Part shown: positions 2,800-21,968 of the stretch, one piece after another
How positions within the stretch are numbered: the stretch's first letter is position 1
How the letters are laid out: each line of letters opens with the position of its first letter
Assembly: GCA_002720745.1 (NCBI GenBank)
Contig: PBJO01000022.1
Coordinates: forward strand, 1-32,000
Direction of reading: 5' to 3'
Source: Balneola sp.
GTDB taxonomy: Bacteria; Bacteroidota; Rhodothermia; Balneolales; Balneolaceae
DNA length: 32,000 bases
Program-made: the position numbers and the translations under genes
Notes under the pieces: model-generated
What the model saw: the letters and a program-made list of their open reading frames with translations, nothing else
Told to the model about the DNA's origin: nothing
The model's database searches: none

Positions 2800-2816
2800 T
2801 TTTATATAAATCATAC

Positions 2817-2860
2817 TTTGAGGTGAGAGTGGAAGCTCTCATCTCAAATTTCTTTCTCTT
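2817..2860 (+). terminator. Rho-independent terminator after the T9SS cargo gene
   Basis: Arm tttgaggtgagag (2817-2829), loop tggaag, arm ctctcatctcaaa (2836-2848). The 13-bp stem has one G:U pair and is followed by the T-rich run tttctttctctt. Confidence 0.6.
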
Positions 2861-2910
2861 AATACTGTTTTCAATCAATAGAGATTCGAGTTTTTGAACG
2901 ATACTCAGTC

Positions 2911-7450: not shown

Positions 7451-7451
7451 A

Positions 7452-8507
7452 ATGTATTCAGAAGAAAGCTATATCATAAATACGTTTTATACACGAATAT
7501 TACCTGACAGTTTCTTTGCAACTATTGGGTTCATAGGTGTGATAGTATTGCTATTGCTGGCCTCTCCTAATTCGCTAAAAGCTCAAAAAAGTTTTGGGCA
7601 AGATCGAGCAGGTACGGAAGGTTTCCAGTTTACCAAAATTCCTGTTGATCCCCGTTCGGCTGCTATGGCAAATTCCAATATGGCCGACGCGATGGATGGC
7701 TCTAGTTTATATTGGAATCCAGCTCTATCTGCAGAAACGACTGGATCGGAAATTATGGTTAGTCATACAGAGTATGTAGCTGGCATTCAGCAAGATTATT
7801 TTAGTTATATCCAGCGGATAAATAGTTATGCAATCGGTGTTTCCGTTCAGTACTTAGGGTCTGGTGACATAATAGAAACTACCGAGTTCCAACCTTTTGG
7901 CACGGGCAGAATATTTTCAACCCATCACATGGCGGCTGGTCTTTCTATTGCGCAGAAGGTAACGGATTTGTTTAGTTATGGTCTAACATTTAAGTATCTG
8001 CTAGAGAAAGTAGAAGAAATTCAATATCAAACTGGTGCCATAGATTTTGGTTTTGCTTACAGAGTAGGAGATACAGGACTTCGATTCGCTGTGGGAATTA
8101 ATAACTTTGGTTTGGATGCGGCACCCGATGGTAATACTCAAAGAGAATCCTTAGAGGGAGTTTTAGAATTAGAACCAGAAACTAATATATCGTTGCCGAC
8201 TCGCTTCCATATTGGTGCTGCGTATGATTTGGTTGATAATCAGCTTAATAAAGTAACATTTACGGTCCAAATTACTAACCCGTCTGATAATGCTGAGCAA
8301 TTGAATATAGGAGCTGAGTATAGTTTCATGGATCAATTTCATCTACGAACGGGCTATGAATACGGGCAACTAGAACGTATAATACCTAGTCTAGGCGGTG
8401 GTATTTCTACTCCATTCGCAGGCCATATATTGAGAGCCGATTATGCGTATACACGTTTTGAACGTTTGGGGCAAATTCATCGGATAGGAGTGAGTATAAG
8501 TTTATGA
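7452..8507 (+). CDS. PorV/PorQ-family outer-membrane beta-barrel (PorV paralog)
   Basis: After the signal peptide (...SLKAQ) comes GTEGFQFTKIPVDPRSAAMANSNMADAMDGSSLYWNPALSA. This matches the characteristic PorV/LptO N-terminal motif (xFLxIxxxARxxxMG...DxSxxYWNPA). The start lies 1 nt after the receptor stop, and an ATGA overlap joins it to the next gene. Confidence 0.75.
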   Translation: MYSEESYIINTFYTRILPDSFFATIGFIGVIVLLLLASPNSLKAQKSFGQDRAGTEGFQFTKIPVDPRSAAMANSNMADAMDGSSLYWNPALSAETTGSEIMVSHTEYVAGIQQDYFSYIQRINSYAIGVSVQYLGSGDIIETTEFQPFGTGRIFSTHHMAAGLSIAQKVTDLFSYGLTFKYLLEKVEEIQYQTGAIDFGFAYRVGDTGLRFAVGINNFGLDAAPDGNTQRESLEGVLELEPETNISLPTRFHIGAAYDLVDNQLNKVTFTVQITNPSDNAEQLNIGAEYSFMDQFHLRTGYEYGQLERIIPSLGGGISTPFAGHILRADYAYTRFERLGQIHRIGVSISL

Positions 8508-9814
8508 GAATAAACCAAATTAAACCTTTGATGAGAGCTTCAGCAACTTCGTTATTGGTCTTTTTTATGATTATTCAGGGAGGATGCAGCGATTTATTCA
8601 ATACTAAGGACAATGCTGATACGGATGAAATTTTTGATGAGGGTAAAATTGATCCTCAACTAGAAAATATTGATGGTTATGCCCCGGTATTACCTTTTTG
8701 GGGTGGTTTTGATGCTCCTAATGATGTGCATGTTGGCTTTGATGAATTTGTATATGTAACTGATGCTAATGGGGTTCATTTATTAGATAGAGCGGATTTA
8801 TCTCCTAGAGTGACCATAGAATTGGAAGGAGCGGAAGCAGTAACACAAGATCGACTATTGAATGTATATGTGGCAGCTAGGATCGACACCATAATTGAGA
8901 GTATTGATCCAACAATTATATGGAATCTGCCTGCTGTGTTTAAAATAAAAAATATGAATGGAGCAGGGCCTATAAGTTTTGTAGACACTCTTATTTTCCC
9001 TTTTGATGACGCGAGTTTAAGCACTTCTGCCGCTCAAAATTCACGCTTAAACCGAAGCAGTAGAGCCAATTATGAAAAAGTGAATATCACAGGTCTCAGC
9101 GTACTTGCCGACAATACCTTATATGTCACGCGAACTGGACCATTTAATGAGACTACTCAGGTAGCAGCCCCAGATAATACGGTGTTAGAATTTCACCGGG
9201 TAATTGTAGATGGTATAAAGACTGATAAGATGCGTAATGTGCGTCAAATAAGAAGTCTCAGTCCAAATGTACCATCATTGCGTAGTGCTATTGGACTAAG
9301 TAGTATAGCTACTTTTGTAGCACCACCTCAACGTGATACTTACACCGATAGTCGGAGTTTTTTAATTACGCAATCACAAGCCAATGTAGAAATTCCTTTT
9401 CGTGTATTATGGATTGATGTGGTCGAGACAGTCGATGGCTTGATTTACCAACAGAATTCACAATTATTAGCTCAGGATACTTCACAAGCAAGTGGGTTTT
9501 TATACGAAACCAATAAATTTCTAAATCCTCAAGATGTAGCATTTGGTGGGGATGATGACGCATTTATCTTTGTAGTAGATAGTGAAGTGCATCGGTTATA
9601 CCAGTTTCAGTCTAATGGTCAAGAAGGCGTTCCTCCACCAGCAGGAGCGGATGATCAAACCCGTCAAATCACAGTCTCTTTTGGTGAGTTAGGTGCTGGC
9701 CCGAAAGAATTTAACATGCCTAGCGGAGTGGCATACTTTCGTCGTGTGGTCTACGTAGCAGACAAAGGTAATAATCGTATTTCTCGGTATAAGTTAACTT
9801 CTGATTTCGAATAA
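8504..9814 (+). CDS. Putative lipoprotein with NHL-repeat/beta-propeller-like segments
   Basis: Signal peptide with QGGC lipobox. NHL-like motifs: GVAYFRRVVYVADKGNNRISRYKL and EFVYVTDANGVHLLD. Confidence 0.65.
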   Translation: MRINQIKPLMRASATSLLVFFMIIQGGCSDLFNTKDNADTDEIFDEGKIDPQLENIDGYAPVLPFWGGFDAPNDVHVGFDEFVYVTDANGVHLLDRADLSPRVTIELEGAEAVTQDRLLNVYVAARIDTIIESIDPTIIWNLPAVFKIKNMNGAGPISFVDTLIFPFDDASLSTSAAQNSRLNRSSRANYEKVNITGLSVLADNTLYVTRTGPFNETTQVAAPDNTVLEFHRVIVDGIKTDKMRNVRQIRSLSPNVPSLRSAIGLSSIATFVAPPQRDTYTDSRSFLITQSQANVEIPFRVLWIDVVETVDGLIYQQNSQLLAQDTSQASGFLYETNKFLNPQDVAFGGDDDAFIFVVDSEVHRLYQFQSNGQEGVPPPAGADDQTRQITVSFGELGAGPKEFNMPSGVAYFRRVVYVADKGNNRISRYKLTSDFE

Positions 9815-12319: not shown

Positions 12320-13663
12320 TTACCCAGAGTTACGTTCTAAGAAGTGAGTATTTCCTTGTACTCTGTAAAGACTTCTAGCAGTCTGAACGGTACCTTTTCC
12401 GTAACGATTATTAATTCGATCAATGGCCTGATAGCGCTGAATATGTTCGGCTTCGTCCCGGAAAAAAAGATTCATTTGGCTAGTTTTGTCCATATTTTGA
12501 GTGCTTATAGTTAGATTACGAATAGCTATTTTTCGGTGGCAGAAGGATTCAATGAGTTCAGCTAATTCTTTCATACATTCATCATACACATATTTGGTAA
12601 TATAAGTAAAACTAGGAGTGACAAAGCGAAATCCTATGTTAGGATAGTTATTTTTATCAAATCCAATATGCCCTCCAAAACTACTCGAACGAATACTATA
12701 GGCCCGCATTCGGTAGCAGATCATTTCGATTCCAATAGCTAGTTCACCTTTGATGGCTTCTGGGTCGGTGCTTCCTTCGGAAAAGGTATGGCCATAACTA
12801 ACACCCCACTTAGGTGAATATTCATAATTTTCTTCGAGTATTCGACCTTGGTCCTGCCCAGTAATCGTTTCAAAAAGCATACGCCCAAAATGTGGCCCAA
12901 ATAAACGTATAAAGGTGTTGGGTTCATTGTGTTTGACCACATCTCGTATGCGCTGATACCCTTCGGCTAGGAGATGCTCATAACGCCTGCGCCCTACACC
13001 CCAAACTTCCTTAAGCGGTAATGGGTGTATATACATTCGTTCATCTTCATTACTCAGAACAAGAGAAATACCTTTAGGCTTATTTAAGCCGCTGGCTAGC
13101 TTAGCATAGGTTTTGGATCGAGCTATTCCAATAGACCCATATAGTCCTGTGGTTTCCACGATGTCGCGCTGCAGTTGTTGAGCAAATGTCTGGATTTGAA
13201 GCTCTTCTTTAGCTAAAAGGAAACTTGCGTCCATGAAATACTCATCCATTGAATAGCGCTCTATTTGATGTGAATATCGATTCATGATATGATGTACCTG
13301 CGTTGATATAGCGGTATAACTAGCATAGTCTACTTGAAGCATGCAAATGTAAGGGCAGCGCTTATAGGCCTCATAGGCGCTCATTCCTGTCTTAATACCC
13401 ATAGAACGTGCTTCATAAGAAGAGGTGGCTACAATACCTTTAACAGTTCCATTTTCTTTTCTCCATCCACCTATAATCAGAGGAACTCCATACATATTCT
13501 TTCGGAGTTGCTCTACTTGTGCGTAAAAGCAGGCAAAGTCAAAATGCAGGTATAATCGGTTTTTACGATGGCGATGTTGGTGTTCTGGATACACCGTATT
13601 GTAGAGAGTAATACGATGTACATCTTGTTCAGCTTGGTAAGAAAAGTCATTTTTTTTAGGCAT
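12320..13663 (-). CDS. Y-family translesion DNA polymerase, UmuC-like with a DUF4113-like C-terminus
   Basis: LHFDFACFYAQVEQ (catalytic Asp), SSYEARSMGIKTGM, YSMDEYFMD (catalytic D-E) and an HhH GVGRRRYEHL. The C-terminal IDRINNRYGKGTVQTA resembles the UmuC/ImuB C-terminal box. A ~35-aa N-terminal extension is His/Arg-rich. Confidence 0.85.
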   Translation of the reverse strand: MPKKNDFSYQAEQDVHRITLYNTVYPEHQHRHRKNRLYLHFDFACFYAQVEQLRKNMYGVPLIIGGWRKENGTVKGIVATSSYEARSMGIKTGMSAYEAYKRCPYICMLQVDYASYTAISTQVHHIMNRYSHQIERYSMDEYFMDASFLLAKEELQIQTFAQQLQRDIVETTGLYGSIGIARSKTYAKLASGLNKPKGISLVLSNEDERMYIHPLPLKEVWGVGRRRYEHLLAEGYQRIRDVVKHNEPNTFIRLFGPHFGRMLFETITGQDQGRILEENYEYSPKWGVSYGHTFSEGSTDPEAIKGELAIGIEMICYRMRAYSIRSSSFGGHIGFDKNNYPNIGFRFVTPSFTYITKYVYDECMKELAELIESFCHRKIAIRNLTISTQNMDKTSQMNLFFRDEAEHIQRYQAIDRINNRYGKGTVQTARSLYRVQGNTHFLERNSG

Positions 13664-13724
13664 AAACTACTCTACTATTGATATGTACAATATATGTGCT
13701 TAATTTAAAATGACCAAATGAAAA

Positions 13725-14372
13725 TTGGTCATGAATAACTTTCCACTTATAGAAATGCTCACTTTTTTTCCCCGCTATTCAGAGGTGCATACTTTTGATT
13801 GGAGGCATCGTTATGTACGGAAGGTGCGTCAAATTAGGTCCTGTCATACTAAGATGCTGGGAGGAGTACCGCATTCATTTTTTAGTATTACAACTCAACA
13901 TGGGGAAGTCATGGATATGCGATTTAATCACGATGAATTACTCTGGGATATAGTAGCACTGCCTGGATCCGATTCACCTGTACATAGCGAAGATGAATCG
14001 CGTCTAGTTATTGATCGGGTATTGGTACACCAGCAACGACACAAACACCAGCCTTCGCTGGCTCACCGTATGTGCCCTATTCGTTTTGAGTGGCTTCCTT
14101 ATGCTCAATGTCTACGGCAGAGCCCTATTGAACATGCCAAAATAGACCGTATGCATCCGTATCGTTTTTTAAAAGGGAAAAACAGTTCCTATCAAATCCA
14201 CAGCGTAGAAACGCGTCATTTAGAAGATGTTATGGTTACTCGGCACTTACATTATATTGTTGAGGATACCGAACGTCGGTTCTATCATGTAGTATACATA
14301 CTGGATCAAGGAGATTGGCGCTTTATACAAGAAGTAGATGAGCAGTTCTTATTTCATCGGCCTGCACCTTAA
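13725..14372 (+). CDS. Hypothetical His/Arg-rich protein, divergent from the polymerase gene
   Basis: A 648-nt open frame in an AT-rich genome with no competing ORF. I recognise no motif in it. The TTG at 13725 is followed by an ATG at 13731, which is the more likely start (MNNFPLIE...). Confidence 0.5.
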   Translation: MVMNNFPLIEMLTFFPRYSEVHTFDWRHRYVRKVRQIRSCHTKMLGGVPHSFFSITTQHGEVMDMRFNHDELLWDIVALPGSDSPVHSEDESRLVIDRVLVHQQRHKHQPSLAHRMCPIRFEWLPYAQCLRQSPIEHAKIDRMHPYRFLKGKNSSYQIHSVETRHLEDVMVTRHLHYIVEDTERRFYHVVYILDQGDWRFIQEVDEQFLFHRPAP

Positions 14373-14392
14373 AAGCGAGTCAAACAGTACTA

Positions 14393-15109
14393 TTAGAATA
14401 AACGTAACTCGGGTTGAATAAGATGGGGGCTGTTGTTACGTACGTTCCCAACAGCGGTAGAAACGATGTGACTCTTTAGGCTATCGTCGGGGTAAGGATC
14501 CAATAGATAATTTAAACTATTAAAATCTTGTTTTGGATCCAACCATGTGCCCCATTCAGATGGATCTAAAAAAACTGGCATCCGATCATGAATGTTTTGC
14601 ATGGTTGTATTGGATTTTGTGGTTAAAATGGAAAACGAATAATAGGAACCCAAAGGACTTAGGGGAGAATAAAAACCAGCTGCAAAAAGAACAGAGTTAT
14701 TGGATGCTTGTATATAGTGGGGGCTTTTATTTCCTTTTGCACCTGACCACTCATAAAATCCATTCATAGGAATAAGGCATCGCTGCGTAGATACTGATCG
14801 CCACATAGATTTTTCTACAATTTCTTCGGATCGGGTATTAATGGGTAACAGGGGCCGACTTCCTGCCTTCGGTTTCCAACCCATAAATCCCCAGTGCATA
14901 AGAATCTGAATAAATTGGTTGGTACTGGTGTTAAGTGAAAGAATAACCGGCACAATATGGCTGGGTGCTATATTATAAGAAGGTAATGTGCGGCCAGTTT
15001 CTTGTAGACACTCATTTTTAAAAATCCCTTCTGTTTCGTTTGGTTGTGAAGATCCACTTAATGCGTCTATGGTATTAAAATCACTAAAAAGAGTGTATCG
15101 TCCACACAT
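14393..15109 (-). CDS. SOS-response-associated peptidase (SRAP/YedK/HMCES family), an abasic-site DNA-protein crosslinking protein
   Basis: N-terminal MCGRY (catalytic Cys2), INTRSEEI, RCLIPMNGFYEW and HDRMPVFL are canonical SRAP motifs. Confidence 0.9.
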   Translation of the reverse strand: MCGRYTLFSDFNTIDALSGSSQPNETEGIFKNECLQETGRTLPSYNIAPSHIVPVILSLNTSTNQFIQILMHWGFMGWKPKAGSRPLLPINTRSEEIVEKSMWRSVSTQRCLIPMNGFYEWSGAKGNKSPHYIQASNNSVLFAAGFYSPLSPLGSYYSFSILTTKSNTTMQNIHDRMPVFLDPSEWGTWLDPKQDFNSLNYLLDPYPDDSLKSHIVSTAVGNVRNNSPHLIQPELRLF

Positions 15110-15125
15110 TAAATAAAAAAGCAGT

Positions 15126-15788
15126 TTAGTAAAAAATCCGAAGTACGATTCGTCTATTTTTTGCGCGATTTTCTACGATGTTTTGTCCAAATTCGTCAGT
15201 ATGGGGTGCAGTAGGTAAGGGTTGTGTATCTGCATATCCTGATGCTTTGAGATTGGAAGCTTTGTATCCTTGATTAACAAGAAATTTAACTACCTCAGAG
15301 GCTCTAGCAACAGAAAGTTCCCAGTTAGAAGGAAATCTTAGCGTATTTATAGGAACATTATCTGTATGCCCTTCGATATCTACCTTAAAATTGTAAAATG
15401 ATAATCCATTTAGAGCGTCAGATACTTTACGAATAATACCCTCGCCTGAGGGTAACAATTCGGCGCCACCTGAGATATAGAGTGAACTACTATTAAATGT
15501 CATCACAATCTCTTTGGTAGTCAAATCAATGTTAACTAAGCCTTGATTACGTTCAGGGGTTAGAACAGAATCAAGATCAGCTTTAATTTCTGCTAATGGT
15601 GTTTTTTGTATTTCAGTACCCGTGACTTCTGATCGCATACCTTCTTTCATTTGGTCCCAAAGGGCTTGATCAGGGGTACTTGAAGCAATTAGAATAGCAA
15701 AAAATGCAAGCAGTAAAGTGATCATATCACTGTATGTAAGAAGATATTCAAGATCTTCTTCTGCTTCTTCGATTTCATTAGCGCTCAT
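15126..15788 (-). CDS. motB: MotB-family stator subunit with an OmpA-like peptidoglycan-binding domain
   Basis: N-terminal YLLTYSDMITLLLAFFAIL holds the conserved channel Asp (D21) within the single TM. The C-terminus carries GHTDNVPI...NWELSVARASEVVKFL...NRRIVLRI, the OmpA_C-like signature. Confidence 0.85.
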   Translation of the reverse strand: MSANEIEEAEEDLEYLLTYSDMITLLLAFFAILIASSTPDQALWDQMKEGMRSEVTGTEIQKTPLAEIKADLDSVLTPERNQGLVNIDLTTKEIVMTFNSSSLYISGGAELLPSGEGIIRKVSDALNGLSFYNFKVDIEGHTDNVPINTLRFPSNWELSVARASEVVKFLVNQGYKASNLKASGYADTQPLPTAPHTDEFGQNIVENRAKNRRIVLRIFY

Positions 15789-15824
15789 AACAAACTTATT
15801 TAAATTGTTATTCTACTAGGATTT

Positions 15825-16643
15825 TTATTCTTTGTCTTTACTTTTACCATCTTTCTTTTTGAAGTCACGCTGTAAAAAAGTGCTAAGTTTATCCTGAACA
15901 TAAAATGCTGTTTTCTTTTCATTAATTAAAATGATTCCTTCGAGCATGAAAGTTTCTCTAAAACGATTTATAGAGGCTGAATTTTTAATTTTCTCAGCAA
16001 CAGGATAAAAAATGAATCGAGAGAGTATAATTCCATATAGTGTAGTCATTAAAGCAGCTGCAAGTCCAGGCCCCATGGCAGAAGGATCGTCCAAGTTACT
16101 TAGCATATCAATTAAACCAAACAATGTACCAAACATACCAAAGGCAGGGGCTGCTCCACCCATCGCTCGAAGAACATCAACAACAACCATTTGCCTAAAA
16201 AAATTTTCTTGGATATGATTAGTTCCGAATTGACGAATGTCGTCACTTGAATAATTGGTACTTAAAAGAGAAAAAAGATATCCTTCTAAGTACCCACCTC
16301 GTTCTTCTTCTAATCTATCTAATGCATTAACTCTATCTTTTCTGATTTCATCATTCCATTCAACAATTGATTCAAAATCTCTTTGGAGAGATTTTTTGTT
16401 TGCACCTGCTTGACTAAAAAAGTATCTCACCCCAGCTAAAGCTTTATTTACATACCTTGATTGAAACGTTATATAAGAGGCCATAAGAACCCCACCTATA
16501 ACAATAACCATACTAGGTATATTCACAAATTGGGTGTTAATGCCATCAGTATAAGTTGTGGTTTTGATTGTCTCCAATACACCAAAAATTATCATTGCTA
16601 AACTAATGACTGTACCGATCATTGAGCCAATTGAAAATTTCAT
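15825..16643 (-). CDS. motA: MotA-family proton-channel stator subunit (MotA/TolQ/ExbB superfamily)
   Basis: Four predicted TM helices with a long TM2-TM3 cytoplasmic loop. GGAAPAFGMFGTLFGLIDML...GLAAALMTTLYGIILSRFIFYPVAEKI matches the MotA TM3/TM4 signature, including both conserved prolines. Confidence 0.85.
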   Translation of the reverse strand: MKFSIGSMIGTVISLAMIIFGVLETIKTTTYTDGINTQFVNIPSMVIVIGGVLMASYITFQSRYVNKALAGVRYFFSQAGANKKSLQRDFESIVEWNDEIRKDRVNALDRLEEERGGYLEGYLFSLLSTNYSSDDIRQFGTNHIQENFFRQMVVVDVLRAMGGAAPAFGMFGTLFGLIDMLSNLDDPSAMGPGLAAALMTTLYGIILSRFIFYPVAEKIKNSASINRFRETFMLEGIILINEKKTAFYVQDKLSTFLQRDFKKKDGKSKDKE

Positions 16644-16646
16644 TTG

Positions 16647-17255
16647 TTACTGTCCTCCACGGATCTCTTGTATTAAAGTTTCTAATTCAGGGATACTAGG
16701 GATTGGAATATTTGGATCCATTTGGACTGCTCGATTCCAATTAGCGCGGGCTGCCGTAATATTTTCTAACATAAAAAAAACAGTTCCTTTCAGGGCATAG
16801 GCGTCTGCGGTCTCTTGTATTTCAAGGGTTTTGTCAACAAATTCTAATGACTGTCGATATTCTCCCAAATAGAATAAATCTTGGGCTTTTCGAAAGTTAG
16901 TAAGTAGAGACTGTATATCCCTAGCTCTATTTTGTACAAGACTAGAGTCGATTACTACGATGGAATCTTTATCGACCGGTCTCATACCTCTTAAATCTAA
17001 ATAAAATTGTTCTCTAGACGGGTCTAGTTTAATCTGAATATTTGAACTTTCATTTAAATAATTAACAGTAATGACCTCTTTGGAAGGTGAATTATCTGAA
17101 TCAATAGAACTCGTTATACGAGGTGAATTTGAAAGTGCTCTTGGATTTGGATTCGTAGGCTGACTATTTGAACTGCTTGATATAGACTGCGGTGTTGCAC
17201 ATCCAATATGCATAACGATAAAAAGCACAATTATTGTTGTGAATTTTTTTTCCAT
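16647..17255 (-). CDS. TPR-containing lipoprotein (periplasmic)
   Basis: The likely start is the Met at 17255 (MEKKFTTIIVLFIVMHIGCATP, lipobox HIGC). The ORF-track start at 17297 would overlap the upstream gene. A Ser/Pro/Asn-rich linker is followed by C-terminal TPR-like helices (AQDLFYLGEYRQSLEFVDKTLEIQETADAYALKG...ANWNRAVQMDPN). Confidence 0.7.
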   Translation of the reverse strand: MEKKFTTIIVLFIVMHIGCATPQSISSSSNSQPTNPNPRALSNSPRITSSIDSDNSPSKEVITVNYLNESSNIQIKLDPSREQFYLDLRGMRPVDKDSIVVIDSSLVQNRARDIQSLLTNFRKAQDLFYLGEYRQSLEFVDKTLEIQETADAYALKGTVFFMLENITAARANWNRAVQMDPNIPIPSIPELETLIQEIRGGQ

Positions 17256-17268
17256 GAAAAATAGGCTA

Positions 17269-18447
17269 TTAGAATCGAATAACTGCATGAAATCCAAATC
17301 CAGTTTGTTTATAAGTTAAACGGTCTTTATTTGCTAATTTTATTGTTTCGCCAGCAAGCATGAGATTACCAAAAACAGACAATCCAATATTTTTACTTAA
17401 ATTAAATTGCAGTCCAGGTTCTAACACAAACATTTCGCCTTCTTTATTCCCAAGTGGAAATTGCGTATTTAATTTGGAATAAAATACTACACGATATTCG
17501 TCTATATCTGCAACTTTTTCTGATATAGCTTGATAATAGATTAATCCCAATTCGAATAGCGAAATATCGAATAATGTTTGTTCTCTGTCTTGAGATCTAA
17601 CTATATGATAACCAGCACTAAAACCAATATAAGAACTATTTTCTAAATCTAAAGGCTGTCTGTAGGTAAATGTTATACTGAAATCAGTAAGAGCTTGTCT
17701 TAACAGAGTATCAGCTTGATGTGAGAATGCGTTTGCTGTGGAATCAGCACCAGCACCAGCACCAGTACCAGTACCAGTAGTGTCGTTACTTGTTGTGGAT
17801 GTTGCATATTTATTTCGGTACCAACTATCAGAGGCTTTATTACTAATGCCAAAAGTAACTAGTTTTTGTGTTCCTTGATTTAAAGTAGGTAAAACTATTG
17901 GAGGGTTTGAAATAAACGAATTACTCCATATCACTTCGCGTGATTGAGGATTCATTACACGGATACTAATAACTAGTCCTTCAGGTTCTCTTCGTTGTAA
18001 ACTTAACTCAACAAGACCTTGGACACCATATTTATAGGCAATTTCTTCTAGCATCTCTGGGGATACATCTGCTAGGGAACGTCCTTGCATATTTAGAATT
18101 TGTAGAGTAGAATCGTTCCCTACAATCTTAAGTTTATCGTTTGGTTCTAATTCAGGAGGTGATAATACGGTAAGCCCAGCATAATTGCGCATAGAATACT
18201 CGATCTCTGCACGTATGTATTCTACCTCTTCATTTGTGAATCTAAGTGCTGAATAATTAATTTTATAGATAGCTATACGACGCACTGTGGCGGGAAAATC
18301 AGCTAAATTTGGATTTAACTGTTCTTGGATTTTTTCAATCATGTACGGATCACCTTGTTCATAACTAAAAATCTGAGCAGCGACATAGTAAGAATCAGTC
18401 AAAGCTCCAAGAATGAAAACGATAAGTAGATTGAATAATTTTTTCAT
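17269..18447 (-). CDS. Outer-membrane protein: N-terminal periplasmic alpha/beta domain, Thr/Gly/Ala linker and C-terminal beta-barrel
   Basis: SPI-type signal peptide (…YYVAAQ). The C-terminal half shows an alternating amphipathic pattern and ends FGFHAVIRF, with the terminal Phe typical of OMPs. The N-domain (IAIYKINY...GVQGLVELSLQRREPEGLVISIRVMNPQSREVIWSNSF) resembles the FlgO/CsgG/TolB-N-like fold pattern. Confidence 0.65.
   Translation of the reverse strand: MKKLFNLLIVFILGALTDSYYVAAQIFSYEQGDPYMIEKIQEQLNPNLADFPATVRRIAIYKINYSALRFTNEEVEYIRAEIEYSMRNYAGLTVLSPPELEPNDKLKIVGNDSTLQILNMQGRSLADVSPEMLEEIAYKYGVQGLVELSLQRREPEGLVISIRVMNPQSREVIWSNSFISNPPIVLPTLNQGTQKLVTFGISNKASDSWYRNKYATSTTSNDTTGTGTGAGAGADSTANAFSHQADTLLRQALTDFSITFTYRQPLDLENSSYIGFSAGYHIVRSQDREQTLFDISLFELGLIYYQAISEKVADIDEYRVVFYSKLNTQFPLGNKEGEMFVLEPGLQFNLSKNIGLSVFGNLMLAGETIKLANKDRLTYKQTGFGFHAVIRF
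17745..17780. repeat. In-frame hexanucleotide tandem tract: (CAGCAC)x3, (CAGTAC)x2, CAGTAG
   Basis: Read directly at 17745-17780. On the coding (minus) strand it encodes the TGTGTGAGAGA linker of the OM protein. Confidence 0.9.
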
Positions 18448-18450
18448 TAT

Positions 18451-20385
18451 CTATGCGTCTGTTTTCATTTTTCGACGTACTGCATAAAGAATAGTTTTTT
18501 GGGCATCTTCAACCTCTGAATTAGTCGCTTCAGAAGGCATTTCTATTTCACTGAGTATGAGTTGTTGATCTCGTTTGGTACGGGATTTTAAAACTTTCTC
18601 TCGAACTGCTGCAGGAGCAGTACGTAGGGCTAAAATAAGTGTTTCAGAGGGTATTTCGTCAAGTGCTGATTTTATTAATTCAATTTTTACTTTAGGTAAA
18701 TCATCAAAACCGATAAAAAACTTTTTAATTTTTTTAGCTAATTCTAAATCTTGTTCTGCAATTGAAGCAACGTATGCATCTTGTTCAGACAGTGGCATAG
18801 TTTCAATTGTATTTAGTATAGTTTCTACACCATCTGCTGCAACGTATTTCATGTCTGAGATTTCTAATGCTTTGTTAGAGAAATGAGAAGCAACTTTTTT
18901 ATAAACTGAAATGGGTATGTTGTTAATTTTTCCCATCTTGAGAAGGATTGATATACGCTTATCATCATCCATTTTTTGTAAAACAACTCCAGCTCTTTCA
19001 CCTGCAACCTGTGCTAATAAAATTGAAATCATTTCCTCAGACTCATCTTTCATTAAATGAAGAATTTGTTGATCTGTTAACTGATCGACAAAGTCGAATA
19101 GGCTGTTTTGCGACCCTTCAGCATCTGTAGATGCTTTATATGTCGTAATGCTGCTTCGGAAATTTTCTGTTTCACTTATCCTTTCTTCCAAAGTAAGGGC
19201 GTCAAAATTATTAAGACCAAAATTAATCATCTCAAAAGTATTGGAACTTATATGAGGCTTTAACATTTTCAACAGCGTCTCGTCTACACTTATAAGGCTT
19301 TTTACCGCTTTCGATACACCCTGTTCTTCATCATTTTCAATCCATTCGCTTATTATATTTGCAACGATTTTTGGTTTACTAATACACATATTTGCAATGA
19401 AGGTTTTGTCTCCTTCGAATTTTGCCATTTCTCTTACAGTAGGCCCTTTTTGAGGTTCTGGTGTTTTAAGTTCTGTAATGATAGGTTGAGAATTTTGTAA
19501 TACAGGTGTAGTTTGTCCCATGTCCTGCATAATTTGTTCTTCATCTTTAGCTTTGGTTTTTCTTGAAATTGCCATAAATAATGCCAGTAAGAATAAGATT
19601 CCTAATGCAATAATTATAAATATTAGATGCTCAGGATTATTCCAATCAATTCCTAAGAACATCTTTTTTTCTCTTTCTGCAACTACTGTTTGTATTATTG
19701 TGTCTGGCGTAAGTGGGAACATACTATTCTCGATAACCTCTTCTCTTTCATTATCTTCTTCTTGCTCTTCTTCAATATCATTAATTTCGTTGTTTGTATC
19801 TAACAACGCCGCGGGATTTGGTGCAGTAGATTTTTTAACATCTTGTGCAATAGCTCGGTTATTGCGCGGAAATACTTTTCTGCTAACCGATATTATGTCT
19901 CCACGAAATTCATCGGCATTTGCAATTAATATAACGGCTTCTTCCACAAAATCTACATCCTCATTACTATAAGAGGTGTCAACGAGTACTTTTATATTGA
20001 GTCTAGTAAGTTGGAAGCGAGCATCAAATCCTGAGGCTCTCAAACTATCCTGATTAGATGACCTATTCTTTTGTATATTTGGTGGGATAAAAGGTAATCC
20101 TGGTAAATTTTCAATTTTAATGTCTTCTTGTGGCTGTATAATCTCATATCCTTTAGGGACTAAGATTCGCTCCAATGTCGCCTTAACATCTACAATAAAT
20201 GTACCTTCTCGATAATAATCTGAGAGTGCATTATCTAAAATTATTTCATAGTACCGTTCATATTTAGCAGTTTCTTCTTGGGCATCTGCAGACAATGTTT
20301 GTGCAGGCAAAATTTGCCCGATTACAATAATACTCTGAAGCGCAATAATGCCCGTAAGAGCAAGAAATTTAAAGTATCCTGCCAT
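18451..20385 (-). CDS. Membrane protein fusing a FliF-like periplasmic ring-forming region to a complete FliG-like (N/M/C) cytoplasmic region
   Basis: TM1/signal at aa 5-27. The periplasmic region includes RLNIKVLVDTSYSNEDVDFVEEAVILIANADEFRGDIISVSRKVF, which resembles the FliF/YscJ C-terminal periplasmic motif. An acidic linker follows, then TM2 at aa 253-273 (nt 19567-19629). The cytoplasmic ~330 aa carry ADGVETILNTIE (FliG-M GGxxxAAxILN-like), KKFFIGFDDLPKV (the FliG MFVFEDL box, nt 18697-18720), LILALRTAPAAVREKVLKSRTKRDQQLILSEIE and VEDAQKTILYAVRRKM (FliG-C). Confidence 0.75.
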   Translation of the reverse strand: MAGYFKFLALTGIIALQSIIVIGQILPAQTLSADAQEETAKYERYYEIILDNALSDYYREGTFIVDVKATLERILVPKGYEIIQPQEDIKIENLPGLPFIPPNIQKNRSSNQDSLRASGFDARFQLTRLNIKVLVDTSYSNEDVDFVEEAVILIANADEFRGDIISVSRKVFPRNNRAIAQDVKKSTAPNPAALLDTNNEINDIEEEQEEDNEREEVIENSMFPLTPDTIIQTVVAEREKKMFLGIDWNNPEHLIFIIIALGILFLLALFMAISRKTKAKDEEQIMQDMGQTTPVLQNSQPIITELKTPEPQKGPTVREMAKFEGDKTFIANMCISKPKIVANIISEWIENDEEQGVSKAVKSLISVDETLLKMLKPHISSNTFEMINFGLNNFDALTLEERISETENFRSSITTYKASTDAEGSQNSLFDFVDQLTDQQILHLMKDESEEMISILLAQVAGERAGVVLQKMDDDKRISILLKMGKINNIPISVYKKVASHFSNKALEISDMKYVAADGVETILNTIETMPLSEQDAYVASIAEQDLELAKKIKKFFIGFDDLPKVKIELIKSALDEIPSETLILALRTAPAAVREKVLKSRTKRDQQLILSEIEMPSEATNSEVEDAQKTILYAVRRKMKTDA

Positions 20386-20454
20386 GATTTAACCCCCGCA
20401 GAAGGTAATTTATTTAAGCCTAAGTATAGATGATGATATGTACATCGCTAAGTA

Positions 20455-20470
20455 TGCGAAAATTTTTCCA
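20455..20470 (-). promoter_or_regulatory. Candidate sigma-54 (-24/-12) promoter for the FliFG-MotAB operon
   Basis: The minus strand reads TGGAAAAATTTTCGCA. The GG and GC dinucleotides sit at the canonical spacing of TGGCAC-N5-TTGCA, ~70 nt upstream of the ATG at 20385. Only 8 of 12 defined consensus positions match, so this is weak. Confidence 0.25.
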
Positions 20471-20652
20471 GTTTTCCACATTATTGAATAAAATAAGTAG
20501 AATATTGATTTAATGATAATATTCTTCAAAATTATTGATGTTTAAATACTTAGACGAGAATAAATCTCACACAGTGTCATTATTTATCTACTTATCCACA
20601 CTCTAGACCACAAAAGAGCACTCAAGTTATGTATGCACTGAACGGGATTTTA

Positions 20653-21081
20653 CTAAGATGAAAAAGCCAAAGCGTAAATTTTCATTTGCTTAACCATAGA
20701 AGCCAAGCCATTAGCTCTCGTTGGTGAAAGATGTTCATGCATCCCAATTTCAGTTATGAAGGTAGGCTCTGTTGAAAGAATGGCACTTGGGGTCTGATGG
20801 CTATATAGGTGGACCATCAATGCTACCAGTCCCTTTGTGATAGCGGCGTCACTATCAGCCTCGAAAATGATTTTACCATCACTGAATTCGGCATGCAGCC
20901 ATACTTGACTTTGACAGCCCTTTACTATGTTATTTTCTACCTTTTTGGAGCTATCAAGATGGGGTAGCTTAGAACCAAATTTAATTATGTACTTATAGCG
21001 CTCAGTCCAATCTTCAAGCAAACTGAATTCTCTGACAATTCTATTTTGGATGTCTACAATACTTACCTTTGACTGCGACAT
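20653..21081 (-). CDS. sufE: SufE-family sulfur acceptor protein
   Basis: ~140 aa with IVKGCQSQVWLHAEF, the SufE active-site Cys motif. The tail RANGLASMVKQMK is SufE-like. Confidence 0.85.
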   Translation of the reverse strand: MSQSKVSIVDIQNRIVREFSLLEDWTERYKYIIKFGSKLPHLDSSKKVENNIVKGCQSQVWLHAEFSDGKIIFEADSDAAITKGLVALMVHLYSHQTPSAILSTEPTFITEIGMHEHLSPTRANGLASMVKQMKIYALAFSS

Positions 21082-21089
21082 ATCGACGC

Positions 21090-21968
21090 TTAAATCTCTT
21101 TTAACTCTAACTTACCGACTGATTTTACTGATGAAATTTTATTGTTATTATCATCTTTTATAGGACTAAATGACTGATATATTGTCTGGTAATCATCAGA
21201 ATCTGGGATTTTATAGCGAAATAATTCAGATACCGTTTTCCCTTCAAACGCATTACTTAGAGCGTGCTGTATCATGGCAACGTCGTCTGGGTGTATAACA
21301 CTACCTAATCCTTTTTCAAAAATATCATCAGAGCTACATCCTGTGACTTCTTCGAAGGCTTCATTTATGTATTTACAATTAAAGCCTGATTCATCTTTAG
21401 AAAATTTCAGAATAAACTCTTCTCGTTGCTTAAGTAGCGTACCAAAATCAGTATTAAAAATTGCCTTTGCTGTTTCTTTTTTCTCTGTAACATCTCGCTG
21501 ATACGATACCCAATGAGTCACCTCTCCTTGAGTATTCATTAAGGGATGAATATCCCACTGGTTGATAAACTCTGAACCGTCTTTACGATAATTAATGGTA
21601 TGACCAAAAAAGGCTTGACCTTCAATTAATCGTCTTTTTAGCCGTTCTAATATAGATCGGTCTGTTTTTTCTCCTTGGAGTATACGAGGTGTTTTTCCTA
21701 GTACTTCTTGTTTTGTGTACCCAGTCATACGGGTGAAGCCGTCATTTACGTAAATAATTTTTGGTCCTGGTTTCACTAAACTAAGCTCGGTGATAATGAT
21801 GGAATCATAATCGTTTCGAATCGCGCTTTCTAACAGCTCCAATTGATGTTTTAGTACAGCAATTTCATTTGCTTGTGACTTAAAAGCATCTTCTAGCCTT
21901 ATTTGTGCTTCAGCGTCTTTTGTAATTTTCTTGATGTCGTCTATTTCAAATGATTTATTGTACTTCAT
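21090..21968 (-). CDS. Dual-PAS protein with no output domain. The first PAS is LOV-like but lacks the adduct-forming Cys.
   Basis: aa 52-160 align by eye to LOV domains: IIYVNDGFTRMTGYTKQEVLGKTPRILQGEKTD...INYRKDGSEFINQWDIHP...WVSYQRDVTEKK. GKTPRILQG (nt 21672-21698) replaces the canonical GxNCRFLQG. An N-terminal coiled coil and a second PAS occupy the rest. Confidence 0.75.
   Translation of the reverse strand: MKYNKSFEIDDIKKITKDAEAQIRLEDAFKSQANEIAVLKHQLELLESAIRNDYDSIIITELSLVKPGPKIIYVNDGFTRMTGYTKQEVLGKTPRILQGEKTDRSILERLKRRLIEGQAFFGHTINYRKDGSEFINQWDIHPLMNTQGEVTHWVSYQRDVTEKKETAKAIFNTDFGTLLKQREEFILKFSKDESGFNCKYINEAFEEVTGCSSDDIFEKGLGSVIHPDDVAMIQHALSNAFEGKTVSELFRYKIPDSDDYQTIYQSFSPIKDDNNNKISSVKSVGKLELKEI

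What the first reader, a model, noticed from the sequence alone, without database searches (positions are those of the whole stretch)
18451..20385. Apparent natural FliF-FliG fusion: MS-ring topology outside and a full FliG-like region inside, in one 644-aa chain
Topology read from the sequence:
- Hydrophobic N-terminus at aa 5-27.
- A periplasmic segment of ~220 aa.
- An acidic linker, NDIEEEQEEDNEREEVIEN.
- TM2 at aa 253-273.
- A cytoplasmic segment of ~370 aa.

This is the two-TM, periplasmic-loop topology of FliF, but the loop is about half the size. The loop ends with RLNIKVLVDTSYSNEDVDFVEEAVILIANADEFRGDIISVSRKVF. That is very like the FliF segment I recall as RLSVAVVV...L...A.GF...RGD...V....F.

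The cytoplasmic part aligns by eye along the whole FliG M and C domains:
- ADGVETILNTIE to GGxxxAAxILN.
- ELAKKIKKFFIGFDDLPKV to ELAEEIRxxMFVFEDLxKL.
- SETLILALRTAPAAVREKVLKSRTKR to xxLALALKGAxxELxEKxxxNMSxRAA.
- VEDAQKTILYAVRRKM to VEEAQQKIxxIIRRL.

In flagella FliF and FliG are separate proteins that bind 1:1 through the FliF C-tail and FliG-N. A covalent, miniaturised version is an unusual architecture.
Basis: partly seen in the sequence, partly recalled or inferred. Interest (0 to 1): 0.85.

Follow-up and report, generated by a model that had tools for sequence, protein, structure and literature searches.

The report
Natural FliF–FliG fusion with MotAB
One 644-residue membrane protein of a marine Balneola bacterium joins the ring-forming part of the flagellar protein FliF to a complete FliG rotor protein, and it sits in a conserved five-gene cluster with a MotA/MotB stator and two outer-membrane-type proteins, apparently a small motor that is not part of a flagellum.

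Summary

- **Cytoplasmic half:** it is collinear with the E. coli FliF C-terminal tail followed by full-length FliG (hhalign 99.4 %, E 6.6e-22, 310 columns, 4-residue gap at the junction).
- **Periplasmic domain:** it has the FliF RBM3/beta-collar fold. The 18 best PDB matches are all MS-ring structures. Pfam YscJ_FliF_C is its best hit and is significant in relatives.
- **Missing parts:** RBM1 and RBM2 are absent, and the FliM-binding EHPQR motif is not kept.
- **N-terminus:** the hydrophobic segment looks like a cleaved signal peptide, not FliF's TM1.
- **Conservation:** the gene is under strong purifying selection (dN/dS 0.12). About 124 clusters at 50 % identity exist, in Balneolaceae, Calditrichaeota and KSB1.
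- **Gene cluster:** wherever downstream DNA was available (40 Balneolaceae loci and 5 distant loci), the order is fusion, ~380-aa OMP-like protein, TPR lipoprotein, MotA, MotB.
- **Rotor-stator contacts:** MotB Asp32, MotA R90/E98 and FliG R281/D289 equivalents are kept in Balneolaceae.
- **Host:** the cluster occurs in non-motile Gracilimonas tropica, which is reported to lack flagellar assembly genes.

This is most likely the rotor of an undescribed MotAB-powered envelope machine. Rotation and output are inferred, not shown.

The parts
18451..20385 (-). 644-aa fusion protein: signal peptide, FliF RBM3/collar-like domain, linker, TM, FliF C-tail, FliG N/M/C
   Evidence: ORF. Domain hits. Full-length homologues.
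20317..20385 (-). aa 1-23: N-terminal hydrophobic segment, probably a Sec signal peptide cleaved after VIG|Q
   Evidence: Hydropathy. AXA|Q-type sites at the aligned position in most family members. Cleavage is inferred, not tested with a dedicated predictor.
19861..20295 (-). aa 31-175: periplasmic FliF RBM3-like domain, alpha-beta then an insertion carrying the near-invariant (>=90 % of 84 sequences) LPGLP motif, then beta-alpha-beta ending in RGD...FP
   Evidence: AF2 domain model with pLDDT 75 and pTM 0.61. Foldseek top 18 PDB hits are all FliF RBM3/collar. PF08345 is the best Pfam hit at E 0.015 and matches 30 of 79 relatives at E <= 0.01. hhalign to E. coli FliF 375-434. dN/dS 0.046.
19636..19860 (-). 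aa 176-250: variable acidic, disordered periplasmic linker ending in the conserved juxtamembrane motif FLGIDWNNP
   Evidence: Length and sequence vary between homologues. pLDDT below 50. Composition.
19564..19635 (-). aa 251-274: transmembrane helix, equivalent to FliF TM2
   Evidence: Hydropathy maximum 3.23. Helix 251-274 in the model.
19324..19434 (-). aa 318-354: FliF C-terminal tail motif (KPKIVANIISEWIEND), the FliG-binding helix of FliF
   Evidence: The family HMM hits the last 19 residues of E. coli FliF at 14.8 bits; 0 of 5000 shuffles reach this (maximum 6.8). Collinear hhalign across the junction. W348 is nearly invariant.
19126..19323 (-). aa 355-420: FliG N-domain equivalent
   Evidence: hhalign of aa 318-425 against E. 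coli FliF-tail+FliG: 94.7 %, E 5.7e-8, 82 columns. TIGR00207 alignment starts at aa 345. Helical with pLDDT 83-89. There is no Pfam FliG_N hit here; Pfam FliG_N hits fall on the M domain.
18796..19125 (-). aa 421-530: FliG middle domain, with the EHPQR FliM-binding motif not conserved
   Evidence: PF14841 E 3.3e-8 at aa 439-509. E. coli E125-H-P-Q aligns to E448-S-E-E.
18454..18795 (-). aa 531-644: FliG C-terminal domain with torque helix; R588, R605 and E613 correspond to E. coli K264, R281 and D289
   Evidence: PF01706 E 8.3e-19. Residue mapping. R605 and E613 are invariant in 31 Balneolaceae sequences. dN/dS 0.025.
17269..18447 (-). 392-aa secreted protein of unknown family: signal peptide, conserved N-terminal domain, C-terminal half ending in an OMP-type beta-signal (...GFHAVIRF). 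Starts 3 nt after the fusion gene's stop codon.
   Evidence: Always the next gene downstream. The C-terminus ends in F in all 41 orthologues retrieved by BLAST. Homologous to the Calditrichaeota protein at E 2e-7. No Pfam, NCBIfam or PDB match.
16647..17255 (-). TPR lipoprotein of about 202 aa counted from the ATG at 17255; lipobox ...HIGC
   Evidence: TPR_1 and TPR_2 hits. A cysteine directly follows the signal-peptide-like stretch in the orthologues. Conserved position in the cluster.
15825..16643 (-). MotA-type stator A subunit, 272 aa
   Evidence: PF01618. NCBIfam MotP 2e-39 and PomA 1e-35 against TolQ 6e-4. R104/E112 correspond to E. coli R90/E98, and P166/P214 to P173/P222.
15126..15788 (-). 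MotB-type stator B subunit, 220 aa: plug, channel Asp21, OmpA-like peptidoglycan-binding domain
   Evidence: PF13677 and PF00691. NCBIfam MotD, MotS and MotB hits. Asp present in 44 of 44 orthologues.

Best explanation
The gene encodes a natural end-to-end fusion of a reduced FliF with a complete FliG.

**Layout along the chain**
1. Signal peptide.
2. RBM3 ring-building domain with a short collar-like insertion.
3. Flexible linker.
4. One transmembrane helix.
5. The FliF C-terminal tail.
6. FliG N, M and C domains.

**Shown by sequence and fold**
- The homology of each part.
- The collinearity across the FliF/FliG junction.
- The absence of RBM1 and RBM2.
- Strong purifying selection.
- The strict five-gene cluster (fusion, OMP-like protein, TPR lipoprotein, MotA, MotB) in three FCB-group lineages.

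**Inferred**
- Like FliF, the RBM3 domains assemble a multi-subunit ring just outside the inner membrane. This places an equal number of FliG domains in a ring under the membrane.
- MotA5B2-type stator units, anchored to peptidoglycan by MotB's OmpA-like domain and gated by its plug, use the ion gradient (channel Asp conserved). They push on the FliG C-domain torque helix through the conserved charge pairs: MotA R104/E112 against FliG E613/R605.
- The ring therefore turns, or at least is loaded with torque.
- There is no FliM/FliN binding motif, so there is no switch.
- There is no RBM1/RBM2 housing, so there is no type III export gate or rod.
- The TPR lipoprotein and the beta-barrel-like protein probably form the outer-membrane end. 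They would act either as a scaffold for the stators (as TPR/SLR proteins do in Vibrio and Campylobacter motors; my own knowledge) or as the part that receives the output.
- The most likely origin is read-through fusion of adjacent fliF and fliG genes, plus loss of RBM1 and RBM2.
- The machine serves a non-flagellar envelope function that remains unidentified.
For: **FliG part**
- Pfam, NCBIfam and PDB sequence hits.
- Foldseek top hits are FliG, E 3.6e-9.
- hhalign 99.4 %, E 6.6e-22, collinear with E. coli FliF-tail+FliG.

**FliF tail**
- 14.8 bits on the last 19 residues of E. coli FliF; 0 of 5000 shuffles reach it.

**RBM3/collar**
- Foldseek top 18 hits are all FliF MS-ring structures, and the same structures are matched by the full-length model.
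- PF08345 hits in the family.
- hhalign to E. coli FliF residues 375-434.

**Selection**
- dN/dS is 0.12 overall, 0.025 in FliG_C and 0.046 in the periplasmic domain.

**Cluster conservation**
- 40 Balneolaceae loci with otherwise differing flanks.
- Five distant loci, including a Calditrichaeota MAG and relatives of KSB1 proteins.
- The fusion->392-aa, 392-aa->TPR and TPR->motA gaps are 3-13 nt; motA->motB is 36 nt.

**Stator identity and contact residues**
-.

**Outer-membrane-type partners**
-.

**Non-flagellar host**
- The cluster is in Gracilimonas tropica DSM 19535 (L025).
- That strain is listed as non-motile (PMC5167729) and as lacking flagellar assembly genes (PMC9909488).
- No other flagellar gene lies in the 32-kb window.

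**Feasibility**
- Salmonella FliF-FliG fusion mutants are motile and form rings (PMC6079021).
Against: - Ring formation, rotation and any output are not shown; only monomer models were made.
- The AF2 full-length model is poor in FliG_M (pLDDT below 50 for aa 419-519).
- The collar-like insertion is modelled with low confidence.
- A disordered linker of 35-75 residues between the RBM3 domain and the membrane is a poor torque shaft.
- The canonical charge pairs are kept in Balneolaceae but not at the aligned positions in the Calditrichaeota/KSB1-like MotA and FliG.
- I could not scan whole genomes for flagellar genes.
- The literature conflicts for the genus of this window: Balneola vulgaris is listed as flagellated in PMC5167729, while the genus Balneola is listed as lacking flagellar assembly genes in PMC9909488.
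- The 392-aa partner has no recognisable relatives.
Confidence: 0.6

Rival explanations
1. The ring does not rotate. The fusion protein would be a fixed inner-membrane docking platform. MotAB units would bind its FliG domains and use ion flow to pull on or remodel the envelope through the TPR lipoprotein and the OMP-like protein. This would be a Tol-Pal/TonB-like force transducer built from flagellar parts.
For: - A long disordered periplasmic linker.
- Outer-membrane and TPR partners resembling the CpoB/Pal logic of Tol-Pal.
- Other 5:2 motors drive non-rotary outputs at the outer membrane (PMC12204202).
- The torque-helix charges are not conserved in the distant branch.
Against: - MotB has the plug and OmpA-like anchor typical of torque-generating stators.
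- The RBM3 fold is a ring-building module.
- The FliG C domain is the most constrained part of the protein, with dN/dS 0.025, and keeps the R281/D289 equivalents in Balneolaceae.
Confidence: 0.22
2. It is a component of a genuine but unusual flagellum. The fusion would replace separate FliF and FliG in flagellated Balneolaceae.
For: - Balneola vulgaris is listed as motile with flagella (PMC5167729).
- Source annotations call homologues 'flagellar motor switch protein FliG'.
- Laboratory FliF-FliG fusions support motility (PMC6079021).
Against: - No RBM1 or RBM2 (no PF01514 hit among the top 25 families listed for 79 relatives; positive control), so there is no housing for the export gate.
- The EHPQR motif is not kept.
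- No flagellar gene is near the cluster in the window or in any of the 45 loci with downstream DNA.
- The cluster is present in non-motile G. tropica, which is reported to lack flagellar assembly genes (PMC9909488, PMC5167729).
Confidence: 0.1
3. It is a decaying remnant of a lost flagellar operon with no present function.
For: PMC9909488 interprets partial flagellar gene sets in Balneolaceae as remnants of an ancestral flagellum.
Against: - dN/dS is 0.12 overall and as low as 0.025 in one domain.
- Reading frames are intact in more than 100 contigs.
- The same five-gene order is kept between lineages whose fusion proteins are only 20-30 % identical.
Confidence: 0.03
4. It is an artefact (two genes joined by an assembly or frameshift error), or the cytoplasmic part is an MgtE_N-type domain and not FliG.
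For: - MgtE_N gives weak hits: E 0.062 in the window protein, and up to 1.6e-8 in relatives. This is expected, because FliG and MgtE_N are related folds.
Against: - The same single ORF is found in independent assemblies, including closed chromosomes.
- FliG_C scores 8e-19 and aligns over the full length of FliG.
- There is no MgtE membrane domain.
Confidence: 0.01

Closest known systems
Flagellar MS-ring protein FliF with rotor protein FliG (E. coli/Salmonella; PDB 6sd1, 7bk0, 8umd, 8wiw)
   Same: - RBM3 fold with an insertion between its two halves.
- RGD...F block of RBM3b.
- TM helix followed by the C-terminal FliG-binding tail.
- FliG N, M and C domains in the same order.
- Torque-helix R281 and D289 equivalents.
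- A neighbouring MotA/MotB with the matching charged residues.
   Different: - One polypeptide, where the flagellum uses two.
- RBM1 and RBM2 are absent.
- The collar insertion is about 50 residues, where FliF has about 110.
- The N-terminal segment is probably a cleaved signal peptide.
- The EHPQR motif is lost.
- Scores are far below the equivalog cut-off (TIGR00207 88.5 against 226.7).
- No other flagellar genes are nearby, and the cluster occurs in a non-motile host.
Salmonella FliF-FliG fusion mutants and engineered FliF-FliG fusions (PMC6079021; Vibrio construct PDB 8z4d/8z4g)
   Same: FliF and FliG are joined covalently at the FliF C-terminus and FliG N-terminus. The full-frame laboratory fusion assembles rings and supports motility.
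   Different: The laboratory fusions arise by mutation or design inside a complete flagellar system and keep RBM1 and RBM2. This one is natural, conserved across lineages, reduced, and embedded in a different gene set.
Other 5:2 ion-driven motors with non-flagellar outputs (GldLM of type IX secretion/gliding, ExbBD-TonB, TolQR-TolA, AglRQS, ZorAB)
   Same: A MotA/MotB-family motor in the inner membrane is coupled to partners reaching the outer membrane, in a non-flagellar setting (PMC12204202, PMC12505986).
   Different: Those systems use non-flagellar-clade A/B subunits and have no FliG or FliF. Here the stator is of the flagellar clade, with plug and OmpA-like domain, and its presumed target is a FliG ring.
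Ring-building-motif proteins outside flagella (SctJ/PrgK of injectisomes, SpoIIIAG of sporulation)
   Same: An alpha-beta-beta-alpha-beta ring-building fold. SpoIIIAG also carries a beta insertion inside the motif. Both appear as weaker fold matches: 2y9j at E 8e-3 and 5wc3 at E 0.11.
   Different: They match clearly less well than FliF RBM3. They have no FliG and no stator partners.

Membership tests
FliG (flagellar rotor/switch protein) | FliG C-terminal domain with torque helix | tested here: met
   PF01706 68.3 bits (cut-off 23.3), E 8.3e-19, aa 541-641. Matched in 76 of 79 relatives at E <= 0.01.
FliG (flagellar rotor/switch protein) | FliG middle domain | tested here: met
   PF14841 34.1 bits (cut-off 25), aa 439-509.
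FliG (flagellar rotor/switch protein) | FliG N-terminal domain that binds the FliF tail | tested here: met
   Not found by Pfam; its FliG_N hits fall on the M domain. hhalign of aa 318-425 against E. coli FliF-tail+FliG gives 94.7 %, E 5.7e-8. TIGR00207 aligns from aa 345.
FliG (flagellar rotor/switch protein) | Charged torque-helix residues (E. coli K264, R281, D288, D289, R297) | tested here: inconclusive
   R588, R605 and E613 are kept; D288 is replaced by S and R297 by T. In the Calditrichaeota/KSB1-like branch only K aligns at the R281 position.
FliG (flagellar rotor/switch protein) | EHPQR motif for FliM binding | tested here: not met
   E. coli E125-H-P-Q aligns to E448-S-E-E in the window protein and to L-K-T-G in P0176.
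FliG (flagellar rotor/switch protein) | Equivalog-level score and flagellar gene neighbourhood | tested here: not met
   TIGR00207 scores 88.5 bits against a cut-off of 226.7. No fliM, fliN or other flagellar genes in the window or loci.
FliF (MS-ring protein) | RBM3 with beta-collar (Pfam YscJ_FliF_C) | tested here: met
   Fold: the top 18 PDB hits are FliF RBM3/collar. Sequence: PF08345 is the best hit but below threshold in this protein (16.2 against 23.8 bits). It is above threshold in some relatives (P0243 33.0 bits; P0316 27.9 bits); 30 of 79 relatives match at E <= 0.01.
FliF (MS-ring protein) | RBM1 and RBM2 (Pfam YscJ_FliF, PF01514) | tested here: not met
   No hit in the window protein at E <= 1 and PF01514 is not among the top 25 families listed for the 79 relatives. 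E. coli FliF control scores 234 bits. The periplasmic domain is only about 145 residues.
FliF (MS-ring protein) | Two transmembrane helices flanking the periplasmic region | tested here: inconclusive
   There are two hydrophobic segments. The first starts at residue 3-6 and is followed by AXA|Q-type sites across the family, so it is probably cleaved. No dedicated predictor was available.
FliF (MS-ring protein) | C-terminal FliG-binding tail | tested here: met
   The family HMM matches E. coli FliF 534-552 at 14.8 bits; 0 of 5000 shuffles reach it. The alignment is collinear through the junction.
Flagellar-type MotA/MotB stator (neighbouring genes) | MotA with E. coli R90/E98 and P173/P222 equivalents; MotB with plug, channel Asp and OmpA-like domain | tested here: met
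   R104 is kept in 40 and E112 in 39 of the 44 aligned MotA sequences (the departures include the Calditrichaeota/KSB1-like loci); the two prolines and the MotB Asp are kept in 44 of 44. Scores are below NCBIfam equivalog cut-offs.
MgtE N-terminal domain | MgtE_N scoring better than FliG domains, with an MgtE membrane domain | tested here: not met
   MgtE_N scores E 0.062 against FliG_C at 8e-19. There is no MgtE transporter domain.

The most novel reading that the evidence does not exclude
This is a stand-alone rotary machine that is not a flagellum. A minimal MS-ring/FliG rotor made from a single protein would be spun by flagellar-type MotAB stators and connected to an outer-membrane beta-barrel and a TPR lipoprotein, in non-flagellated Balneolaceae, Calditrichaeota and KSB1 bacteria. 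It would be either a flagellar motor core stripped down and repurposed, or (less likely) a surviving relative of the motor as it was before it acquired a type III export apparatus.
Probability: 0.4. Interest if true: 0.9.

Novelty: new variant of a known kind. Interest (0 to 1): 0.8.

Why it matters
In all characterised systems I am aware of, FliF, FliG and flagellar-clade MotAB work together only inside flagella. If the cluster is confirmed in genomes without flagella, the rotor-stator core can exist and be selected for on its own.

This bears on two open questions:
- How the flagellar motor arose, in particular whether a motor could exist before or without the export apparatus.
- What else ion-driven rotary motors do in the bacterial envelope.

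The system also offers a very small rotor, one protein with no switch, for structural and single-molecule work. One host, Gracilimonas tropica DSM 19535, is cultured, which makes the question testable.

The RBM3/collar-like domain also turns up fused to LysM or repeated in a lipoprotein. This suggests a wider, unrecognised family of periplasmic ring builders.

Tried and rejected
- **PDB sequence search with the periplasmic profile:** nothing found, so the FliF link had to come from Pfam on relatives, hhalign and fold search.
- **Pfam FliG_N hits:** these looked like evidence for an N domain but lie over the M domain and were discarded. The isolated N region has no Pfam hit. hhalign was used for that test.
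- **The 392-aa partner:** Pfam, NCBIfam, PDB single-sequence and PDB profile searches gave nothing significant.
- **Sigma-70 promoter and terminator scan of 14300-20700:** counts were at shuffle level and therefore uninformative.
- **The listing of cluster members:** gave no organism names for distant representatives. Taxonomy of the distant branch rests on NCBI names.
- **Metagenome scan with the LysM-RBM3-like protein P0161:** returned only generic LysM genes, none with the domain.
- **Literature:** nine searches and the two most relevant recent surveys of MotAB relatives and force transducers (PMC12505986, PMC12204202) contain no description of this fusion or cluster. This covers the searchable library only.
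- **Explanations considered and rejected:** MgtE_N identity, assembly artefact and pseudogene remnant (see rival explanations).


Full report
**Observation**

The window has an ATG-started ORF at 18451..20385 on the minus strand encoding 644 aa. A hydropathy scan finds two hydrophobic segments, aa 3-31 and aa 249-277. The window is about 37 % G+C. It is 96 % identical at protein level to an uncultured marine Balneola MAG (L001).

**The cytoplasmic half is FliG, preceded by the FliF tail**

- Pfam gives FliG_C (E 8.3e-19, aa 541-641) and FliG_M (3.3e-8, aa 439-509), both above their gathering thresholds. MgtE_N reaches only E 0.062.
- TIGR00207 (fliG) aligns aa 345-638 to model positions 30-319 of 338. 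The score is 88.5 bits, well below its equivalog cut-off of 226.7.
- A family profile hits solved FliG structures at 1.6e-16.
- Foldseek with the full-length model puts FliG chains first, at E 3.6e-9, with 309-353 aligned columns.
- Pfam FliG_N hits in this family lie on the M domain and are not evidence for an N domain.
- The decisive test was hhalign of the family's cytoplasmic profile (82 sequences, window aa 318-644) against a concatenate of the last 60 residues of E. coli FliF and E. coli FliG. It gave one collinear alignment of 310 columns, probability 99.4 %, E 6.6e-22, with only a 4-residue gap at the FliF/FliG junction.
- The N part alone (aa 318-425) gives 94.7 %, E 5.7e-8 against the concatenate, but only E 0.0018 against FliG alone.
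- An HMM of the post-membrane motif (consensus gnPkevArvlesWieedge; KPKIVANIISEWIEND in the window) hits the last 19 residues of E. coli FliF at 14.8 bits. None of 5000 shuffled FliF sequences exceeds 6.8 bits.

The protein therefore carries FliF's FliG-binding tail immediately before a FliG N domain. This is the layout expected from read-through of adjacent fliF and fliG genes, which overlap by 8 nt in E. coli.

**The periplasmic domain is FliF RBM3 with a collar-like insertion**

- The window protein alone gives no YscJ_FliF_C hit at E <= 1 when scanned whole.
- Scanned as an isolated domain, PF08345 is its best Pfam hit, at E 0.015 and 16.2 bits, below the threshold of 23.8.
- An exhaustive profile search with aa 28-290 found 124 cluster representatives, mostly 580-690 aa long.
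- Of 79 long representatives, matches at E <= 0.01 were: 76 FliG_C, 75 FliG_M and 30 PF08345 (best E 7e-8). The PF08345 hits checked individually fall on the end of the model, the RBM3b block.
- hhalign against E. coli FliF aligns only that block, residues 375-434, at E 5e-4.
- AF2 predicts alpha, long beta, loop with the near-invariant (>=90 % of 84 sequences) LPGLP motif, long beta, alpha, beta. This is the order RBM3a, collar, RBM3b described for FliF (PMC10655999 introduction).
- For the domain model (pLDDT 75, pTM 0.61), the 18 best PDB matches are all FliF MS-ring RBM3/collar structures, at E 3.7e-5 to 5.5e-4 and TM 0.46-0.56. OsmC/Ohr folds and PrgK follow. The full-length model finds the same FliF entries.
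- There is no trace of RBM1 or RBM2: no PF01514 hit in the window protein, and PF01514 is not among the top 25 families listed for the relatives. E. coli FliF scores 234 bits as a control.

**Topology**

In most family members the N-terminal hydrophobic stretch begins within a few residues of the start. It is followed by AXA|Q-like sites, which is VIG|Q in the window protein. I infer a cleaved signal peptide and a single-pass mature protein. This was not tested with a dedicated predictor.

Between the RBM3 domain and the membrane lies a variable, acidic, low-confidence linker of 35-75 residues.

**Real gene under selection**

- Full-length homologues of 41-96 % identity occur on more than 100 contigs, including closed chromosomes.
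- Against a relative with 77 % amino-acid identity, dN/dS is 0.12 overall. By region it is 0.025 in FliG_C, 0.071 in FliG_M, 0.046 in the periplasmic domain and 0.31 in the membrane/cytoplasmic linker.

**Context**

On the same strand the fusion gene is followed by four genes:
1. A 392-aa ORF, after a 3-nt gap.
2. A TPR protein, after a 13-nt gap counted to the ATG at 17255.
3. MotA, after a 3-nt gap.
4. MotB, after a 36-nt gap.

Conservation of the cluster:
- The five-gene order holds in all 40 Balneolaceae loci with downstream DNA, including the cultured Gracilimonas tropica DSM 19535 and Balneola sp. EhC07. Flanking genes differ between loci.
- The same order holds in a Calditrichaeota MAG and in four other distant loci whose fusion proteins are only about 20-30 % identical to the window protein.

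The stator genes:
- MotA matches flagellar stator models (MotP 2e-39, PomA 1e-35) far better than TolQ or ExbB.
- MotB has the plug, the OmpA-like domain and the channel Asp, which is present in 44 of 44 orthologues.
- MotA R104 and E112 align with E. coli R90 and E98. They are kept in 40 and 39 of the 44 aligned MotA sequences; the departures include the Calditrichaeota/KSB1-like loci.
- The FliG partners R605 (R281) and E613 (D289) are invariant in the 31-sequence Balneolaceae alignment.
- In the Calditrichaeota/KSB1-like branch both sides differ at the aligned positions.
- The EHPQR motif that binds FliM is not kept.

The two outer partners:
- The 392-aa protein has a signal peptide and a conserved N-terminal domain that is homologous to its Calditrichaeota counterpart (E 2e-7). 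In all 41 orthologues retrieved its C-terminus ends in F, after an alternating hydrophobic pattern in the Balneolaceae ones, like an outer-membrane beta-signal. It has no match in Pfam, NCBIfam or PDB.
- The TPR protein has, in the orthologues examined, a cysteine directly after its signal-peptide-like stretch.

**Host biology**

The window carries type IX secretion markers (Por_Secre_tail, PorV-like) and no flagellar gene. PMC9909488 reports that Balneola, Fodinibius, Gracilimonas tropica DSM 19535 and others lack flagellar assembly genes. It also reports that cultured Balneolaceae of that study are non-motile. PMC5167729 lists G. tropica as non-motile but B. vulgaris as flagellated. I could not scan whole genomes, so the non-flagellar status is best supported for G. 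tropica and remains open for the organism of this window.

**Mechanism**

- *Shown:* homology, domain order, selection, synteny and conserved contact residues.
- *Inferred:* the RBM3 domains build a ring as in FliF. This arrays FliG under the membrane. Plugged, peptidoglycan-anchored MotAB units use ion flow to push the FliG torque helix. There is no switch and no export gate. The lipoprotein and the beta-barrel-like protein form the outer end, either as a stator scaffold or as the output.
- *Feasibility:* covalent FliF-FliG fusions are known to work, because Salmonella fusion mutants are motile and the full-frame fusion forms rings (PMC6079021). An engineered Vibrio fusion is in the PDB (8z4d).
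- *Main doubts:* the long flexible linker; the unknown output; the divergent charge pattern in the distant branch; and the lack of any multimer model or experiment.

**Comparison and novelty**

The protein passes the domain tests for FliG (C, M and N) and for FliF RBM3 and tail. It fails the tests for a canonical flagellar FliF (no RBM1/RBM2) and a canonical FliG (no EHPQR, sub-equivalog score, no flagellar neighbourhood).

Databases label homologues 'FliG C-terminal domain-containing protein' or 'flagellar motor switch protein FliG', and precomputed Pfam strings already show PF08345 with the FliG domains. Nine literature searches and two recent surveys of MotAB relatives found no description of the fusion or the cluster.

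I rate it a new variant of a known kind: flagellar rotor and stator parts in a new, reduced, apparently non-flagellar system. Interest is 0.8.

Noticed in passing
Proteins P0161, P0170, P0193, P0202, P0241 and P0243: The same RBM3/collar-like periplasmic domain occurs without FliG. One architecture is signal peptide, LysM, the domain, then a C-terminal TM helix (about 300 aa). Another, P0243, appears to be a lipoprotein with three tandem copies followed by TPR repeats. This suggests a wider family of periplasmic ring-building proteins.
   Followed up: partly
window 103-9814 (+): A run of five plus-strand ORFs:
- an 898-aa protein with a type IX secretion C-terminal sorting domain
- a 515-aa ORF with no Pfam hit
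- a 1000-aa CarboxypepD_reg+Plug+TonB-dependent-receptor barrel protein
- a PorV-like protein
- an NHL-repeat protein

It is not linked to the motor cluster in other genomes.
   Followed up: no
window 12320-15109: An SRAP (SOS-response-associated peptidase) gene starts 16 nt after motB. It is followed by a 215-aa ORF on the other strand and a Y-family polymerase (IMS) gene. These genes accompany the cluster only in the loci whose fusion protein is >=71 % identical to the window's, so they are probably not part of the system.
   Followed up: partly
window 20653-21968 (-): SufE and a double-PAS protein lie directly upstream of the fusion gene. Homologues of both are found upstream at variable distances (about 1-9 kb) in many but not all Balneolaceae loci. 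A regulatory link to the PAS protein is possible but was not examined.
   Followed up: no
L042 6249-7175 (+): In the Calditrichaeota MAG a CsgG-family gene lies about 800 nt upstream of the fusion gene on the same strand. It is not seen in the other distant loci.
   Followed up: no
Literature (PMC5167729 against PMC9909488): Balneola vulgaris is tabulated as motile with flagella, while a later genome comparison lists the genus Balneola among those lacking flagellar assembly genes. The 'incomplete flagellar pathway' reported for Aliifodinibius may partly consist of this FliG/MotA/MotB cluster.
   Followed up: no
MotA and FliG_C of L042/L044 against the window: The canonical rotor-stator charge pairs (MotA R90/E98 and FliG R281/D289 equivalents) are kept in Balneolaceae. 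At the aligned positions in the Calditrichaeota/KSB1-like branch they are replaced on both proteins. This could be co-variation or alignment uncertainty.
   Followed up: partly
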